From a virus: a stretch of DNA of 33,699 nt. Shown here one piece after another: positions 7,417 through 20,374 of this stretch. The notes under the pieces are model-generated. The model did no database searches and was not told the DNA's origin. It worked only from the letters and a program-made list of their open reading frames with translations. Position 1 is the first letter of the stretch. Each line of letters starts with the position of its first letter. Location of the stretch: the UHGV virus genome UHGV-0139590, one strand, 5' to 3'. The position numbers were made by a program, and so were the translations under genes.

Positions 7417-7457
7417 GTGTGACTGTCATATTGTAATACAGTCACACGCACCTTTTT
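7417..7457 (+). terminator. Perfect 10-bp inverted repeat (GTGTGACTGT-N11-ACAGTCACAC) followed 5 nt later by TTTTT; terminator or operator
   Basis: Lies 13 nt after the stop of the 728-aa gene. The T-run is separated from the stem by GCACC, so an operator is equally possible. Confidence 0.4.
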
Positions 7458-16895: not shown

Positions 16896-16901
16896 AACAA
16901 G

Positions 16902-16924
16902 GCCCCGGAAACGGGGCTTTTTTT
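16902..16924 (+). terminator. Rho-independent terminator (GCCCCG-GAAA-CGGGGC + T7)
   Basis: Seven nt after the stop of the 112-aa gene; perfect stem and T-run. Confidence 0.7.
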
Positions 16925-16925
16925 G

Positions 16926-18135
16926 GTTCGCCGGTCGAAATCACAGCGTTTTATCCGTAATAGATTCAACGTTTATAAGGATGAACGGTTATTGACATCT
17001 TCCCGCCCTAAAGGATGGGGATTCCTACAGCCAGACGGCGATGCCCCGCCGCGAGAATGTTCTTTGCGGCGTTTACGTCGCGGTCGTGAGCGGTTCCGCA
17101 CTCACAACAAGTCCAGTCTCTTATTCGCAAGCCTGCTCTACCTTTCGGACTGTTAGCGGAGATAGCCCCGCAACACGAACAAGCCTGGGTGGAATATTTT
17201 TCGTTAACGACTTCGAACACTACCGACCGCGCAATCGCTTTGTATTTCAGTTGTGTTTTGAGCATGAACCAGCCAGCGTCCAGAACGCTTTTAGCCATTT
17301 TGGTTTTAACCAGTTTCTTACTGCTCACGTCGCCTACGAATATTGCCGCATGGCTGTTTACCAGTGCCGTGCTGTACTTATGCAGTGCATCTTTGCGGCG
17401 GTTCTTAATTTTGGCGTGAATGGCGCGTACGCGGGCTTTTTTGTTCGCCCTCTGCGCCTTGCCTAATGCGGGTTGCAGGTCACGATAAAACCTACCTGCA
17501 ACCAGTGGATCACCCTCTGACGGGGTGGCGTAGTCCTTTAATCCCAGATCTATGCCGATAGCTGTTATTCCCGTTGTCGGGGTGGTTTCGACTTCTACGC
17601 AGACATTGAAATACCAGCGCCCCCGACTATCTTCTGAAAAGCTACCGGCGCGGAATTTATAACCCGCCAGTCCGTAGCTATCCCACACCTTAAAATAGTG
17701 GCCTGCGAACTTGACGCAGCCATTTTGCCATTGCGCCTGCTTCGATTTAAACGGCACCCAGCCCAGAGAACGGCGAGCTCCGCCACTGACACGCCAGCGC
17801 AGACGCGAGCGTTTAAACTGCTTCCGCGCTTTGCCGTGGTCTGCGATCACTTCCTGCACCGTGGCGCTGCCGATGATATAGCCGCGCTCTTTCTGAATAC
17901 CTGCCGTCATCTTCTGAACGTCGAACGCCGACAGCCAGCGGGGAATTTGCGCACCAAAAGCGCCAGCGTTGCTGTATGCCTCGCTGGTTATCTCGTTTGC
18001 CAGATTAAAGACCTGATTGACCTCAAAGGCCATCTGCCGCAAAACGGCGGCGTGGCGGTCTTTAACCCGGACGGATAATGTTTTGATGCGCGTATTCATG
18101 CTCATTACTCCCGCCCGCAGGCGGGAGCCTCCGGG
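16926..18135 (-). mobile_element. IS200/IS605-family insertion element carrying only tnpB (IS1341-like); boundaries approximate
   Basis: Single TnpB ORF, with a perfect 8-bp stem / 4-nt loop hairpin (18108-18127) immediately upstream of its start, as in subterminal left-end hairpins of this family. No tnpA and no terminal inverted repeats, as expected. Confidence 0.6.
17008..18105 (-). CDS. tnpB: TnpB (IS605 OrfB-family RuvC-like, RNA-guided nuclease family), 365 aa
   Basis: RuvC-like motifs GIDLGLKDYATPSEG and HDRDVNAAKNIL; zinc-finger cysteines CSCCG...CCECG near the C-terminus. ATG 18105 with GGGAG upstream. Confidence 0.8.
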   Translation of the reverse strand: MSMNTRIKTLSVRVKDRHAAVLRQMAFEVNQVFNLANEITSEAYSNAGAFGAQIPRWLSAFDVQKMTAGIQKERGYIIGSATVQEVIADHGKARKQFKRSRLRWRVSGGARRSLGWVPFKSKQAQWQNGCVKFAGHYFKVWDSYGLAGYKFRAGSFSEDSRGRWYFNVCVEVETTPTTGITAIGIDLGLKDYATPSEGDPLVAGRFYRDLQPALGKAQRANKKARVRAIHAKIKNRRKDALHKYSTALVNSHAAIFVGDVSSKKLVKTKMAKSVLDAGWFMLKTQLKYKAIARSVVFEVVNEKYSTQACSCCGAISANSPKGRAGLRIRDWTCCECGTAHDRDVNAAKNILAAGHRRLAVGIPIL

Positions 18136-18666
18136 TTAGATCACAAACCAGTCTTCGGCCTGCTCGTCATTCAGCGAAGGGAAAAATTCCACCTCACCTC
18201 CATTAGAATCGAGCAAAAATAAATCATCATTTTCAATGAGAACGTAGCTCGCCGGAACCCAGCTAAGACGCCCTATGAATCGACCAGTACGCGCTGAAAA
18301 ACGCAGTGCTAATTCATACTTCACGTTGCGCCCCCGAAATATTCCAGTAGTTAATCTGAGGGCGATTTGTCGCAGTAAACCGGGCAGAAAAGATACAAGG
18401 TGCGTCGGGTAGTTGAGAACGGGCTTCGGATTCGCTTGCAGCAATAACCGTGTGATAGCGGCGTTTCTGGCAGGAATAGAAGCGCCATATAAATTCAGAG
18501 TGAATCTGGGTAGGGATTGCCAGCATGAGCTGATCTCCGATAACAGTTTAAAACTATCACCACCTGGAGTTTCCACGCTCTGATTGGTGGTGACGCTGAC
18601 GGGGGTGGAAATACCGGCGTTATCGGGAACCGGCCAGCCCGAGAGCTGCCCCGCCAGCGCCACCAT
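18136..18666 (-). CDS. Hypothetical protein (176 aa), weak call
   Basis: Longest ORF in a region with several overlapping ORFs on both strands. No clear SD. Ends exactly at the IS left boundary. No HUH motif, so not TnpA. Confidence 0.3.
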   Translation of the reverse strand: MVALAGQLSGWPVPDNAGISTPVSVTTNQSVETPGGDSFKLLSEISSCWQSLPRFTLNLYGASIPARNAAITRLLLQANPKPVLNYPTHLVSFLPGLLRQIALRLTTGIFRGRNVKYELALRFSARTGRFIGRLSWVPASYVLIENDDLFLLDSNGGEVEFFPSLNDEQAEDWFVI

Positions 18667-18718
18667 AATTTTGTGCGGATCTGTGCCGCTGAATATGGGG
18701 GTACTGACTTACGACAAT

Positions 18719-18741
18719 AAAAAAAGACGCCTGGCGCGTCT
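18719..18741 (-). terminator. Hairpin (AGACGC-CTGGC-GCGTCT) with T7 on the minus strand
   Basis: On the minus strand the stem is followed by TTTTTTT; on the plus strand it is preceded by A7. Confidence 0.4.
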
Positions 18742-18994
18742 GTTGTCGCCGATAACAATTTGCCGGGTTTCCACGCCCGTGCAGACCTTTTTCGTCTGCG
18801 AGAGCAAATGTAACCACCCGGAATGCAGTTTGCAACCACTTTGATTACATATCGGATGACAACAACATTGCCATACTGTCATACAATCGCACTGTAATAC
18901 AATAACAATTAGATTTACTGTTATTTTTCTTCGGTCAGTTGATTGCACATAGTTCATATCATCCCGTTACCGAAAACAGTTAGAGGGCAGGGCA

Positions 18995-20374
18995 TTGAAT
19001 GAATTAACGAATGCCATTGATAACACCGCTGGCGTGGATAGCCTGGTGGCACTGGTAGCATCACTGCATTTCAGCCAGACCGGGTTAGGCCGGACATCTT
19101 TTGTCGTGACCAGCAAAGGAGATGAGGTCAAAACCAGTTTTAAGGTGATCGATGCCCGAAGCCTGGTTATCTCCAACAATCTGGACGGCACCATTAACCC
19201 CAAATTCCCCGCCGAGTTGCAACCGCGCGACCGCACCCGCATGGCGAGCAAAATTCAGGTGAGCAAAATAGCGGGCAACCTGCGACCGGCCCAGCTGAGC
19301 GACTCCGGGCTTAGTAGTCACGGCGCGCCGATTGTCGGCCTGGATAACGTTGTCGAATCCGGTAACGGGCGCTCAATGGGTATTTTGCGCGCCTACGAAC
19401 AGGGGCAGGCGGACAGCTACCGGCTGTACCTGATTGAGCATGCTGTCGACTACGGGCTGAAAGCGTCGGACATTGAGAAGATGGATATGCCGGTGCTAGT
19501 GCGCGAGCGCATAACTGACGTTGACCGCGCGAAGTTTGCCCGCGATTCTAACCAGTCAGATTTACAGGAAATGGCCGCGAGTGAAAAAGCGTTTGTAGAC
19601 GCTGAAATGCTCGACGAGCGGCTCATGGCGATGTTTGCGCCATCAGATGAAGGCAATCTGTTAGCCCGCACCAACGACGCGTTTATTCGGGCATTCATGA
19701 AGGAAATTGGCGACACGGCCTCAGCTGGCCTTGTAACCACTGACGGGCGACCAACCAAGCAGCTGATTGACCGAATCCAGAATGCTATTTTTGCCAAAGC
19801 TTACAAAGATGAGCGTTTAGTAAAGCTGGTGGCAGAGGAGCCGGACCCGGATATGCGTAATATCCTGACCGCACTCAATACCGCAGCGAGCGATTTTGCC
19901 AAGATGCAGATGCTATCCGGCGACGTTCACAAGCAGGCGGTTGACGGGCTGGTGAGCGGCGTGGAGGAGGTGAGCGGGCTGGATAAACAGGCCATCGCCG
20001 CGCTACAGGATGCAATAAACCTCGTCCGCCAGGCGAAGGACAGCGGTCAGGCAATCGAAGAGGCGATCGCCCAGCAGGGATTGTTTGAGGAGACGAGCAA
20101 AGAGGCCGAGGCGCTGGCGCTCTTTATCGTGGCGAACAACCGTAGCGCAAAACGTATCGGCGCAGCATTCAAGAAGCTGGCGCAGAAAATTAACGCAGAG
20201 CTAACCCACCAGCAGCAGGCGTTGGGGGATATGTTTGGCGGGGGTGATTTATTGCTGGTGGACGTGCTTAGTGCGGTTTCACGCGAGATTGAAGAGGAGT
20301 TCGGCGAAGGGAAAGGGCTGAATTTTGCGATGTTTGAATCCGCAGCGGGTGCGGGGGATGTAGCCGTAAACTAA
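18995..20374 (+). CDS. ParB/Srx-like N-terminal domain protein (459 aa), TTG start
   Basis: TTG 18995 is the first start-like codon after an in-frame TAG at 18950, with GAGGG 7 nt upstream. Motif PIVGLDNVVESGNGRSMGILRAYEQG parallels the ParB box (for example P1 ParB ...ILDGSRRRASAIL). No adjacent parA. Confidence 0.6.
   Translation: MNELTNAIDNTAGVDSLVALVASLHFSQTGLGRTSFVVTSKGDEVKTSFKVIDARSLVISNNLDGTINPKFPAELQPRDRTRMASKIQVSKIAGNLRPAQLSDSGLSSHGAPIVGLDNVVESGNGRSMGILRAYEQGQADSYRLYLIEHAVDYGLKASDIEKMDMPVLVRERITDVDRAKFARDSNQSDLQEMAASEKAFVDAEMLDERLMAMFAPSDEGNLLARTNDAFIRAFMKEIGDTASAGLVTTDGRPTKQLIDRIQNAIFAKAYKDERLVKLVAEEPDPDMRNILTALNTAASDFAKMQMLSGDVHKQAVDGLVSGVEEVSGLDKQAIAALQDAINLVRQAKDSGQAIEEAIAQQGLFEETSKEAEALALFIVANNRSAKRIGAAFKKLAQKINAELTHQQQALGDMFGGGDLLLVDVLSAVSREIEEEFGEGKGLNFAMFESAAGAGDVAVN

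What the first reader, a model, noticed from the sequence alone, without database searches (positions are those of the whole stretch)
18136..18990. Low-confidence coding stretch between the IS and the ParB-like gene, with a minus-strand terminator
Several short overlapping ORFs occur on both strands and none has a clear SD. A clean hairpin plus T7 on the minus strand lies at 18719-18741, and an AT-rich tract at 18840-18990. The region may be a decayed gene remnant left by IS-associated rearrangement, or may carry a minus-strand non-coding RNA that ends at that terminator.
Basis: inference. Interest (0 to 1): 0.4.

Follow-up and report, generated by a model that had tools for sequence, protein, structure and literature searches.

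The report
Antisense-RNA switch cassette riding a TnpB element
The "messy" stretch is an intact phage P1-type antisense-RNA (c4) control cassette that governs a cell-division inhibitor gene and a tiny candidate anti-defence gene, and it appears to travel between P1-like phage-plasmids joined to a TnpB insertion element.

Summary
The hairpin+T7 (18741-18719, minus), the AT-rich tract and the overlapping ORFs are real. The region is not a decayed gene. On the minus strand it reads:
- a weak promoter, then an IsrK-like leader RNA that ends at that terminator;
- a C4 antisense RNA (Rfam 80.7 bits, cut-off 45);
- an intact icd gene;
- an overlapping 62-codon ORF (18324-18136) of the Tad2-like/DUF2829 family.

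Two C4 segments are exactly complementary to two site pairs, one in the leader and one over the icd ribosome-binding site. These "addresses" co-vary with their targets across ten cassettes.

The 176-aa ORF is an artefact. It starts inside the c4 gene, crosses icd out of frame, and only its last 62 codons are coding. A relative has a stop codon in that frame.

The classical antirepressor gene is absent. The cassette is followed instead by a GC hairpin and tnpB.

The same cassette+hairpin+tnpB block recurs at other sites in P1-like phage-plasmids, three times in E. coli ET210. The cassettes there are near-identical, but the tnpB genes are unrelated and the C4 addresses differ.

It is a known kind of switch with new cargo and a new vehicle. 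The Tad2-like function and the way the block moves are inferred.

The parts
18807..18835 (-). Candidate sigma-70 promoter of the cassette: TTGCAA (18835-18830), 17-nt spacer, TACATT (18812-18807). The predicted start is about 7 nt downstream, at the first base of the leader.
   Evidence: Read from the sequence. It matches 8 of 12, below the scanner's 9-of-12 threshold. The same position and spacing are seen in P1 (P51b), RCS47 and Leclercia. It is conserved in ET210, L013 and L017. Inferred.
18720..18799 (-). IsrK-like leader RNA. It has two 5' hairpins, the second displaying site a1 in its loop, then site b1, then the intrinsic terminator.
   Evidence: Rfam isrK RF01394: 46.3 bits, E 3.9e-8, full model 1-77, just below the gathering score of 50. 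The homologous leaders in RCS47 and an E. coli plasmid pass it at 60.2 and 62.7 bits. Fold.
18719..18741 (-). Intrinsic terminator (stem AGACGC-GCCAG-GCGTCT plus T7).
18768..18774 (-). Target site a1 (GTGGAAA), complementary to C4 positions 60-66.
18749..18756 (-). Target site b1 (GTTATCGG), complementary to C4 positions 45-52.
18583..18670 (-). C4 antisense RNA gene.
   Evidence: Rfam RF01695: 80.7 bits against a gathering score of 45, E 1.5e-15, full model 1-87.
18570..18576 (-). Target site a2 (GTGGAAA).
18537..18544 (-). Target site b2 (GTTATCGG). It overlaps the first two bases of the icd Shine-Dalgarno GGAG (18538-18535).
18314..18526 (-). icd, an intact 70-aa Icd-like cell-division inhibitor gene.
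   Evidence: NCBIfam phage_ICD_like 48.6 bits against a cut-off of 25. phrog_1426 E 2e-33, full length. About 75% DNA identity to P1, P7 and D6 icd. Aligns over its length with P1 Icd. 8 synonymous versus 4 non-synonymous codon changes against L006.
18136..18324 (-). orfX, a 62-aa Tad2-like (DUF2829) ORF. Its GTG start overlaps the icd stop codon by 11 nt (translational coupling).
   Evidence: Pfam PF11195 18.4 bits, E 0.0033, full-length match, below the cut-off of 25. It is 43% identical over its full length to P0004, which passes the cut-off at 33.5 bits. A 62-aa homologue is called in metagenomes and in ET210. 10 synonymous versus 5 non-synonymous codon changes, with 11 of 16 differences at third codon positions.
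18136..18666 (-). The 176-aa ORF. It is an artefact that fuses the c4 gene, an out-of-frame crossing of icd, and orfX.
   Evidence: Residues 1-55 hit Pfam Phage_ASH and lie over c4 and its target sites. Across icd in this frame, 12 of 13 changed codons are non-synonymous and L006 has a stop codon. No homologue of the same length was found.
18108..18127 (-). GC hairpin CTCCCGCC-TGC-GGGCGGGAG between the orfX stop and the tnpB start. Probable left-end (LE) hairpin of the tnpA-less IS.
   Evidence: Identical in L006 over 30 of 30 nt. Present wherever a tnpB follows the cassette and absent from the IS-free Leclercia copy. Resembles the LE and RE hairpins of the complete Klebsiella IS. Inferred.
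17008..18105 (-). tnpB (365 aa), IS200/IS605 family, with no tnpA.
   Evidence: Pfam OrfB_IS605 and Cas12f1-like TNB domains. 87.9% amino-acid identity to the TnpB of a complete Klebsiella IS that carries tnpA.
16992..17030 (-). IS right end: imperfect hairpin, last bases ...GATGTCAA.
   Evidence: Homology to independent Klebsiella and Salmonella copies stops exactly at 16992.
16974..16991 (+). 18-nt fragment TATAAGGATGAACGGTTA copied from inside a ddrB gene, abutting the IS right end.
   Evidence: Exact match to Leclercia ddrB codons YKDERL (L001 6837-6854). The window's own ddrB copy (19802-19819) differs at 4 of 18 positions.
18840..18990 (.). AT-rich divergent control region between the cassette (minus) and ddrB (plus). 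It carries the direct repeat ACTGTCATACAAT / ACTGTAATACAAT (18875-18887, 18891-18903), each copy with a TACAAT -10-like box facing ddrB.

Best explanation
The interval is an intact phage-P1 immI-type antisense-RNA control cassette on the minus strand.

Layout:
- A weak constitutive promoter starts transcription at about 18799.
- Most transcripts stop at the leader terminator (18741-18719). This yields a short IsrK-like RNA that carries sites a1 and b1.
- Read-through transcripts carry C4, which is presumably cut out as in P1, then icd and the overlapping 62-codon Tad2-like ORF.

Control:
- C4 pairs through two exposed segments, CCGAUAAC and UUUCCAC, with sites a2 and b2. b2 overlaps the icd Shine-Dalgarno sequence.
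- Pairing would block icd translation.
- It would also block the coupled downstream ORF, because the ORFs overlap.
- By polarity it would block transcription into tnpB.
- The leader copies a1/b1 can pair with C4 in cis or in trans and so tune the switch.
- The expected outcome is a burst of Icd and the small protein when the element enters a C4-free cell, then silence once C4 accumulates.

Shown: the RNA and protein family matches, the exact and co-varying complementarity, the intactness and selection on both ORFs, and the artefactual nature of the 176-aa ORF.

Inferred: the promoter, processing, coupling, timing, and that the small protein acts as a Tad2-like anti-defence sponge.
For: - RNA families: Rfam C4 at 80.7 bits and isrK at 46.3 bits, adjacent on the minus strand.
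- Terminator.
- Complementarity: exact 7-nt and 8-nt matches of C4 to a1/b1 and a2/b2. The paired motif occurs only at these sites in 33.7 kb, against 0 expected.
- Co-variation of C4 addresses with targets: P1, RCS47, an E. coli plasmid, L013/L014/L017 and four ET210 cassettes.
- P1 annotation of the same a1/b1/c4/a2/b2/icd layout, with 'repression of icd ant translation'.
- icd family hits.
- Purifying selection in the icd and orfX frames, and a stop codon in the 176-aa frame in L006.
- orfX homologues of the same length.
- Tad2-like hits for orfX, P0001, P0004 and the Leclercia 83-aa protein. Tad2 chains are six of the nine PDB profile hits.
- The read-through RNA folds with leader:C4 long-range pairing, z = -5.35.
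- The IsrK system is documented to work through terminator read-through, a short upstream ORF and translational coupling (PMC4825925).
Against: - No expression data exist.
- The promoter matches only 8 of 12 and was not called by the scanner.
- The isrK score is below Rfam's cut-off.
- No antirepressor gene follows icd, so the classical output of immI is missing.
- No P1-type C1 operator was found in the window.
- orfX itself is below the Pfam cut-off.
- Both AlphaFold models have low confidence (pLDDT 69 and 67) and the fold searches found no Tad2.
- orfX lacks the N-terminal helix that SPO1 Tad2 uses to form tetramers, and has Val where SPO1 Tad2 has the ligand-contacting Asn26.
Confidence: 0.85

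Rival explanations
1. Decayed gene remnant. The ORFs would be fragments of a gene broken by the IS, with no current function.
For: - The 176-aa ORF has no homologue of the same length.
- The IS lies immediately next to the interval, and a ddrB fragment sits at its right end.
- The classical ant gene is missing.
Against: - Both RNA genes match Rfam over their full length.
- icd is full length.
- orfX ends at the same ...DW..I stop as its distant homologues that lack an IS.
- Changes are mostly synonymous.
- All four target sites are perfect.
- The same arrangement is kept in several diverged copies.
Confidence: 0.03
2. The selected product is the C4 RNA alone. It would act in trans as a superimmunity determinant, on an icd-ant operon elsewhere or on incoming related phages. 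icd, orfX and tnpB would be passengers of no consequence.
For: - C4-type RNAs act in trans in P1 and P7 (P1 annotation; otherwise my own knowledge).
- The closest complete relative carries four C4 genes.
- Addresses are shuffled between cassettes, as expected for immunity specificities.
Against: - Each C4 address matches its own cis targets.
- No second a/b target pair exists in the 33.7-kb window.
- icd and orfX show purifying selection, and their overlap is preserved.
- Where icd has shrunk to a 36-codon upstream ORF, the coupling to the Tad2-like gene is still kept.
- No ant gene was seen next to any of the cassettes examined.
Confidence: 0.15
3. The cassette works as described, but the 62-aa protein is not a Thoeris-type signal sponge. 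It could be a small antirepressor or another early effector that replaces Ant.
For: - It occupies the position of ant, downstream of icd.
- It is below the Pfam cut-off.
- It is 27 residues shorter than SPO1 Tad2 and lacks helix alpha-1.
- One DUF2829 protein was also described as an anti-CRISPR.
- In Leclercia and ET210 the only resident C4 is followed by this family and not by ant.
Against: - Homology to a protein that passes the Tad2-like cut-off.
- The C-terminal motif (W/F)xPSxxDxxAxDW contains the equivalents of SPO1 Tad2 W73 (Phe here), S76 and D79.
- The neighbourhood is the Dar anti-restriction operon.
Confidence: 0.3

Closest known systems
Phage P1/P7 immI operon (P51 promoters - a1 b1 - c4 - a2 b2 - icd - ant1/ant2)
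   Same: - Same order and strand logic.
- C4 RNA of the same Rfam family.
- Two address segments, each with an upstream and a downstream target.
- b2 lies over the icd ribosome-binding site.
- icd overlaps the next ORF.
   Different: - There is no antirepressor. icd is followed by a 62-aa Tad2-like ORF and then tnpB.
- The addresses differ (GTGGAAA / GTTATCGG against P1's TTGACAG / GTTAGTG).
- No P1-type C1 operator was found.
- The cassette sits inside the darA-ddrA-ddrB operon and not at the immI position.
- The cassette is multi-copy in the closest relative.
Salmonella Gifsy-1 isrK - orf45 (STnc1160) - anrP locus (PMC4825925)
   Same: - A leader sRNA ends at an intrinsic terminator.
- Read-through gives a polycistronic RNA that contains a processed C4/CI-like RNA.
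- Expression of the downstream gene depends on translation of a short upstream ORF.
   Different: - The window's leader scores just below the isrK cut-off (46.3 against 50).
- The output gene is not an antirepressor.
- Activation by the short RNA in trans was shown for IsrK and is only inferred here.
Tad2 / DUF2829 (Pfam PF11195), e.g. SPO1 Gp34.65, HgmTad2 (AcrIIA7)
   Same: - Full-length, weak match to the domain.
- Conserved Trp in the N-terminal part, and the C-terminal motif xPSxxDxxAxDW.
- Small size and a phage anti-defence neighbourhood.
   Different: - 62 aa against about 89 aa, with no N-terminal helix.
- Phe replaces W73 and Val replaces N26.
- Below the family cut-off, and the fold is not confirmed.
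- It is controlled by an antisense RNA, which I did not find reported for Tad2.
IS200/IS605-family tnpB-only elements (IS608-like ends)
   Same: - TnpB domains.
- Right end finishing in TCAA or TCAC after an imperfect hairpin.
- An LE-like hairpin upstream of tnpB.
- Complete relatives carry tnpA.
   Different: - The unit that is inserted is 2.0-2.2 kb and includes the whole cassette upstream of the LE-like hairpin.
- The right-end boundary is constant but the promoter-side ends are not homologous.
- Three unrelated tnpB lineages share the same cassette junction.

Membership tests
Rfam C4 antisense RNA (RF01695) | Covariance-model score at or above the gathering score, over the full model | tested here: met
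   80.7 bits against 45, model positions 1-87 of 87.
Rfam C4 antisense RNA (RF01695) | Two exposed segments complementary to target pairs upstream (a1 b1) and downstream (a2 b2), with b2 at the icd ribosome-binding site | tested here: met
   Exact 7-nt and 8-nt matches at 18774-18768, 18756-18749, 18576-18570 and 18544-18537. They co-vary across ten cassettes.
Rfam C4 antisense RNA (RF01695) | Processing from a longer transcript to a stable ~77-nt RNA (by RNase P in P1) | not testable with these tools
   Needs RNA mapping. The 3' ...CACCA is present in the sequence.
Rfam isrK (RF01394) | Score at or above the gathering score | tested here: not met
   46.3 bits against 50, although E is 3.9e-8 and the full model is matched. 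Positional homologues pass at 60.2 and 62.7 bits.
Rfam isrK (RF01394) | 5' hairpins plus an intrinsic terminator, located directly upstream of a C4/CI-like RNA | tested here: met
Icd-like cell-division inhibitor (NCBIfam NF033153) | Score above the curated cut-off, intact ORF | tested here: met
   48.6 bits against 25. phrog_1426 E 2e-33. 70 aa, against 73 aa in P1.
P1 immI operon | An antirepressor gene (ant1/ant2) coupled downstream of icd | tested here: not met
   After icd come a 62-aa ORF and then tnpB. There is no Ant-like ORF.
P1 immI operon | A C1 repressor operator at the c4 promoter | tested here: inconclusive
   The P1 consensus ATTGCTCTAATAAATTT gave 0 matches at up to 3 mismatches. 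This element's repressor specificity is unknown.
Tad2-like / DUF2829 (PF11195) | Score above the Pfam gathering score | tested here: not met
   orfX scores 18.4 bits against 25, E 0.0033, full length. P0001 scores 21.7. Homologue P0004, 43% identical, passes at 33.5.
Tad2-like / DUF2829 (PF11195) | Ligand-contacting residues of SPO1 Tad2 (W25, N26, W73, S76, D79) | tested here: inconclusive
   The Ser and Asp equivalents are kept, and Phe replaces W73. The W25 and N26 equivalents (Trp kept, Val in place of Asn) rest on motif position and not on a printed alignment. The alignment was assembled by hand and residue numbers.
Tad2-like / DUF2829 (PF11195) | Tad2 fold (alpha-1 plus a five-stranded antiparallel sheet) and a tetramer | tested here: inconclusive
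Tad2-like / DUF2829 (PF11195) | Binding of gcADPR or other immune nucleotides, and anti-Thoeris activity | not testable with these tools
   Needs biochemistry and infection assays.
IS200/IS605 family element | TnpB with OrfB_IS605 and zinc-ribbon (TNB) domains | tested here: met
   49 and 74 bits.
IS200/IS605 family element | Y1 transposase gene tnpA | tested here: not met
   Absent here. Present in the Klebsiella relative.
IS200/IS605 family element | Defined right end with a subterminal hairpin | tested here: met
   Homology to independent copies ends at 16992...GATGTCAA.
IS200/IS605 family element | Defined left end and target motif | tested here: inconclusive
   There is an LE-like hairpin at 18108-18127. 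However, the inserted unit extends about 830 nt further, and the promoter-side ends differ between copies.

The most novel reading that the evidence does not exclude
The cassette (leader, C4, icd, Tad2-like gene) and the tnpB element behind it may form one ~2-kb mobile unit. This unit would multiply within P1-like phage-plasmids and move between them.

- Each copy carries its own orthogonal antisense-RNA address. The result would be several independently switched copies of an early-expressed anti-defence gene in one genome.
- Three unrelated TnpB lineages have been recruited at the same junction.
- Movement would use the IS right end plus a variable upstream cut, carrying along the 5' flank.
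- TnpB would help retain the unit.
Probability: 0.3. Interest if true: 0.75.

Novelty: new variant of a known kind. Interest (0 to 1): 0.55.

Why it matters
Annotation:
- Gene callers mis-read this module. The c4 RNA gene is called an "ash family protein" and the 62-aa gene is skipped or fused.
- About 2,200 plasmid records hold this kind of c4-icd module.

Biology:
- It extends the P1 c4 antisense switch from antirepressor control to control of a candidate anti-defence gene. That gives an RNA-based counterpart to the protein repressors that shut off anti-CRISPR genes after an early burst.
- It provides a natural set of orthogonal RNA addresses: four a-variants and four b-variants on an almost identical scaffold.
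- If the cassette+tnpB block is one mobile unit, it would be a cargo-carrying IS200/IS605/TnpB element. It would also offer a tractable case for asking what TnpB does for its host element.

Tried and rejected
Searches that found nothing:
- Megablast of the region against phages and plasmids found only tnpB and ddrB.
- tblastn of orfX against phages found nothing.
- Scans of genome contigs, viral contigs and metagenome contigs, using the orfX alignment, the orfX/tnpB junction, the hairpin/tnpB junction and the C4 address, all found nothing. The family is rare in those collections. Relatives came from protein look-ups and from the E. coli genome set instead.

Tests that were uninformative:
- A profile search of 1.84 billion representatives found only five hits.

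Ideas tested and dropped:
- A P1 C1 operator at the promoter: no match.
- A LexA box in the AT-rich tract: rejected on reading, because the ACTGT repeats are direct and not inverted.
- That the IS truncated orfX: rejected. orfX ends at the same residue as IS-free homologues.
- That the hairpin at 18108-18127 is an operon terminator belonging to the cassette: disfavoured. It has no T run and is absent from the IS-free Leclercia copy.
- Conserved, type-specific left ends for the blocks: not found.

Literature: searches for Tad2 with TnpB, Icd or antisense RNA, and for IS605 passenger genes, found nothing relevant.
Full report
**1. Observation**

- ORFs of 30-176 codons overlap on both strands across 18136-18990. 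They include the 176-aa ORF at 18136-18666, minus strand.
- On the minus strand there is a 6-bp G+C-rich stem at 18741-18725. Seven T's at 18725-18719 complete the site, the first of them closing the stem.
- GC drops to 0.34-0.41 between 18800 and 18999.
- One statement is wrong: "none has a clear SD". The ATG at 18526 is preceded by GGAG at 18538-18535.

**2. What the interval contains**

An Rfam scan places two RNA families head to tail on the minus strand.
- C4 antisense RNA lies at 18670-18583: 80.7 bits, gathering score 45, E 1.5e-15, full model.
- An isrK-like RNA lies at 18799-18720: 46.3 bits, gathering score 50, E 3.9e-8, full model.

Sensitive blastn aligns 18374-18517 to the icd genes of P1, P7 and D6 at about 75% identity. 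It aligns 18377-18771 to an unannotated second c4-icd module of phage RCS47.

The 70-codon ORF 18526-18314 is icd.
- It matches NCBIfam phage_ICD_like at 48.6 bits against a cut-off of 25.
- It matches phrog_1426 over its full length at E 2e-33.
- It aligns along its length with P1 Icd.

**3. The antisense logic is intact**

- C4 positions 45-52 (CCGATAAC) are exactly complementary to GTTATCGG at 18756-18749 (b1) and 18544-18537 (b2).
- C4 positions 60-66 (TTTCCAC) are exactly complementary to GTGGAAA at 18774-18768 (a1) and 18576-18570 (a2).
- The combined a..b motif occurs only at these places in the 33.7-kb window, plus its own complement inside c4. None is expected by chance.
- b2 overlaps the icd Shine-Dalgarno sequence.

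The addresses differ between systems and the targets change with them:

| System | a | b |
|---|---|---|
| P1 | TTGACAG | GTTAGTG |
| RCS47 | TTGAGAC | GTCAAAGG |
| E. coli plasmid | TTGGAAC | GTCAAAGG |
| L013/L014/L017 | GTAGGAA | GTTATCGG |
| ET210 block A | GTGAGAA | GTACAAGG |
| ET210 block B | GTGGAAA | GTACAAGG |
| ET210 block C | GTAGCAA | GTTATCGG |

This co-variation is the strongest evidence that the switch is functional.

Other features:
- The leader alone folds into two 5' hairpins, with a1 in the second loop, a weak third hairpin over b1, and the terminator.
- The 281-nt read-through RNA folds with long-range leader:C4 pairing, z = -5.35.
- A candidate promoter, TTGCAA-17-TACATT (18835-18807), sits where the P1, RCS47 and Leclercia promoters sit. 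It matches only 8 of 12 positions, so it is inferred.

**4. The 176-aa ORF is an artefact; its last 62 codons are a gene**

- Its first 55 residues hit Pfam Phage_ASH. They are simply the translation of the c4 gene and its targets.
- It then crosses icd in another frame.
- Against the 89-96%-identical metagenome contig L006, that frame shows 12 non-synonymous changes out of 13 changed codons, plus a stop codon.
- The icd frame shows 8 synonymous and 4 non-synonymous changes.

From the GTG at 18324 the frame becomes a real ORF, here called orfX (62 aa, ending at 18136).
- It shows 10 synonymous versus 5 non-synonymous codon changes, with 11 of 16 differences at third positions.
- A 62-aa homologue is called independently in metagenomes and twice in an E. 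coli plasmid.
- Its start overlaps the icd stop by 11 nt, as ant1 overlaps icd in P1.

**5. What orfX is**

- orfX gives a full-length but sub-threshold match to Pfam Tad2-like/DUF2829: 18.4 bits, cut-off 25, E 0.0033.
- Its close homologue P0001 scores 21.7 bits.
- P0004, 43% identical over the whole length, passes at 33.5 bits.
- A profile of the family retrieves Tad2 structures as six of nine PDB hits, through the C-terminal motif xPSxxDxxAxDW: 8v3e, 9eib, 8wjd, 8sme, 8wje and 8kbi.
- In SPO1 Tad2 the ligand contacts are W25, N26, W73, S76 and D79. By my hand alignment, orfX keeps Ser and Asp and has Phe for W73. It also appears to keep the first Trp and to have Val for N26, but no printed alignment covers that N-terminal part.
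- orfX is 27 residues shorter and lacks the N-terminal helix.
- AlphaFold models have low confidence, and fold searches do not find Tad2.

I therefore call it Tad2-like by homology and treat the sponge function as inference.

**6. What is missing, and what follows**

P1 and RCS47 have an antirepressor after icd. Here there is none. After the orfX stop come a 20-nt GC hairpin (18127-18108) and tnpB (18105-17008).

The TnpB is 88% identical to that of a complete Klebsiella IS200/IS605 element, which also has tnpA. The right end is fixed at 16992 (...GATGTCAA) by comparison with independent copies.

**7. Context and rearrangement**

- In the closest IS-free relatives, ddrA is followed directly by ddrB. 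These are P1-like phage-plasmids of Leclercia and Citrobacter.
- About 2.0 kb of the window, roughly 16959-18960, is an insertion relative to them. It is flanked by the imperfect repeat ATCCGTAA / ATCCCGTTA.
- The 18 nt next to the IS right end (16974-16991) are an exact copy of an internal ddrB sequence of the Leclercia allele. The window's own ddrB differs there at 4 positions.
- An IS-linked rearrangement therefore happened, but it delivered an intact cassette.

**8. The block recurs**

E. coli ET210 plasmid NZ_CP100991.1 (91 kb) has the same ddrA | tnpB-orfX-icd-c4 | ddrB layout at 95.5% identity. It carries four Rfam C4 genes.
- One "resident" C4 is followed by an 83-aa-type Tad2-like ORF, as in Leclercia. 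There it is the only C4 in the plasmid.
- Three C4 genes head blocks of c4-icd-62aa-hairpin-tnpB.
- Among the three blocks, Icd is 96-97% and, for the two annotated copies, orfX 93.5% identical. The tnpB genes are only 28-41% identical.
- The same three tnpB lineages appear elsewhere:
  - A is 82% identical to the tnpB of L013.
  - B is 79% identical to that of L017.
  - C is 92% identical to that of the window.
- In L013-L018 the cassette is a diverged variant. icd is reduced to a 36-codon upstream ORF that still overlaps the Tad2-like start. Those blocks sit at other genome positions: lydA|cin-like, and pro|portal.
- Relative to Leclercia, blocks A and B are clean insertions. Their tnpB-side boundary falls at the IS right end: exactly for A (TCAC|), and by reading the junction for B (TCAA|; the aligner stops about 7 nt short). 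Their promoter-side ends are not homologous to one another.
- In L017 the right end also abuts host sequence directly.
- The hairpin is present wherever a tnpB follows, and is absent from the IS-free Leclercia copy.

How the block moves, and why three TnpB lineages share one junction, is unresolved. My working idea is 5'-flank co-mobilisation from a shared LE-like hairpin.

**9. Mechanism proposed**

This section draws on P1 knowledge and the IsrK study (PMC4825925).
- The promoter is constitutive.
- Most transcripts stop at the leader terminator.
- Read-through supplies C4.
- C4 then masks the icd ribosome-binding site and silences icd, the coupled orfX and, by polarity, downstream transcription.
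- The short leader RNA, which carries a1/b1, can compete for C4.
- On entry into a naive cell, Icd and the small protein would be made briefly before C4 accumulates. That timing suits an anti-defence factor, and the cassette lies inside the Dar anti-restriction operon.

**10. Verdict**

The finding is explained by known families: C4, IsrK-like, Icd, Tad2-like and TnpB. The combination is a new variant in four respects:
- an immI-type switch without an antirepressor;
- a Tad2-like gene as its cargo;
- orthogonal addresses in multiple copies;
- physical linkage to TnpB elements as a ~2-kb inserted unit.

Confidence is high for the architecture, moderate for the coupling and timing model, and low to moderate for the anti-defence function and the mode of mobility.

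Noticed in passing
window 18502-18666 (-); L010 2172-2295; ET210 37197-37286, 45061-45180, 49163-49447, 73279-73371: The Pfam Phage_ASH match and PGAP's 'ash family protein' CDSs lie on the same strand over the Rfam C4 RNA gene. At least these 'Ash proteins' appear to be translations of an RNA gene. About 2,200 plasmid records match this module.
   Followed up: partly
window 18557-18564 (-): A third conserved complementarity. GGTGGTGA, 19 nt downstream of C4, pairs with the 3' strand of the C4 basal stem (positions 78-85). The equivalent element co-varies in RCS47 and an E. coli plasmid (GCGGTAGC) and is present in Leclercia and ET210. It may form an alternative helix that affects C4 processing or folding.
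   Followed up: partly
window 18875-18903 (+) and 7420-7448: The motif ACTGTNATACAAT occurs twice in tandem upstream of ddrB and once more in the window, inside the perfect palindrome TGTGACTGT-N11-ACAGTCACA in another intergenic region. That is 3 matches against 0.04 expected. It could be a shared promoter or regulator site, possibly of late-promoter type.
   Followed up: partly
window 16974-16991 versus 19802-19819; L001 6837-6854: An 18-nt ddrB-internal fragment sits next to the IS right end. It is closer to the Leclercia ddrB allele than to the window's own ddrB. In its original setting the site would read ...CAGTTTTAC|TAACCG..., that is, an IS608-like TTAC target.
   Followed up: partly
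window 18995-20374 (+): The ddrB-ParB gene is 459 aa here and in ET210, but 958 and 1012 aa in the Leclercia and Citrobacter relatives. The small gene that follows ddrB in those relatives is missing.
   Followed up: no
L006 positions 18-24: The metagenome relative has GTGAGAA at site a2 where the window has GTGGAAA. Its c4 is cut off by the contig end, so the compensating change could not be checked. ET210 block A has that address with a matching C4.
   Followed up: partly
window 16899-16930 (+): A strong plus-strand intrinsic terminator lies directly after ddrA. It is shared with Leclercia but replaced by unrelated sequence in ET210, so the ddrA-to-IS spacer differs even between close relatives.
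   Followed up: no
L021 (ET210) 32256-38780: In the closest relative the portal gene appears to be split by a Tn3 carrying a frameshifted blaTEM. That phage-plasmid may therefore be defective.
   Followed up: no
L011 15449-15844 and ET210 about 36900-37290: The only C4 of the Leclercia plasmid, and the 'resident' C4 of ET210, are followed directly by an 83-aa Tad2-like ORF, then a ParA-like AAA ATPase. There is no icd and no ant. The a2/b2 matches there are imperfect.
   Followed up: partly
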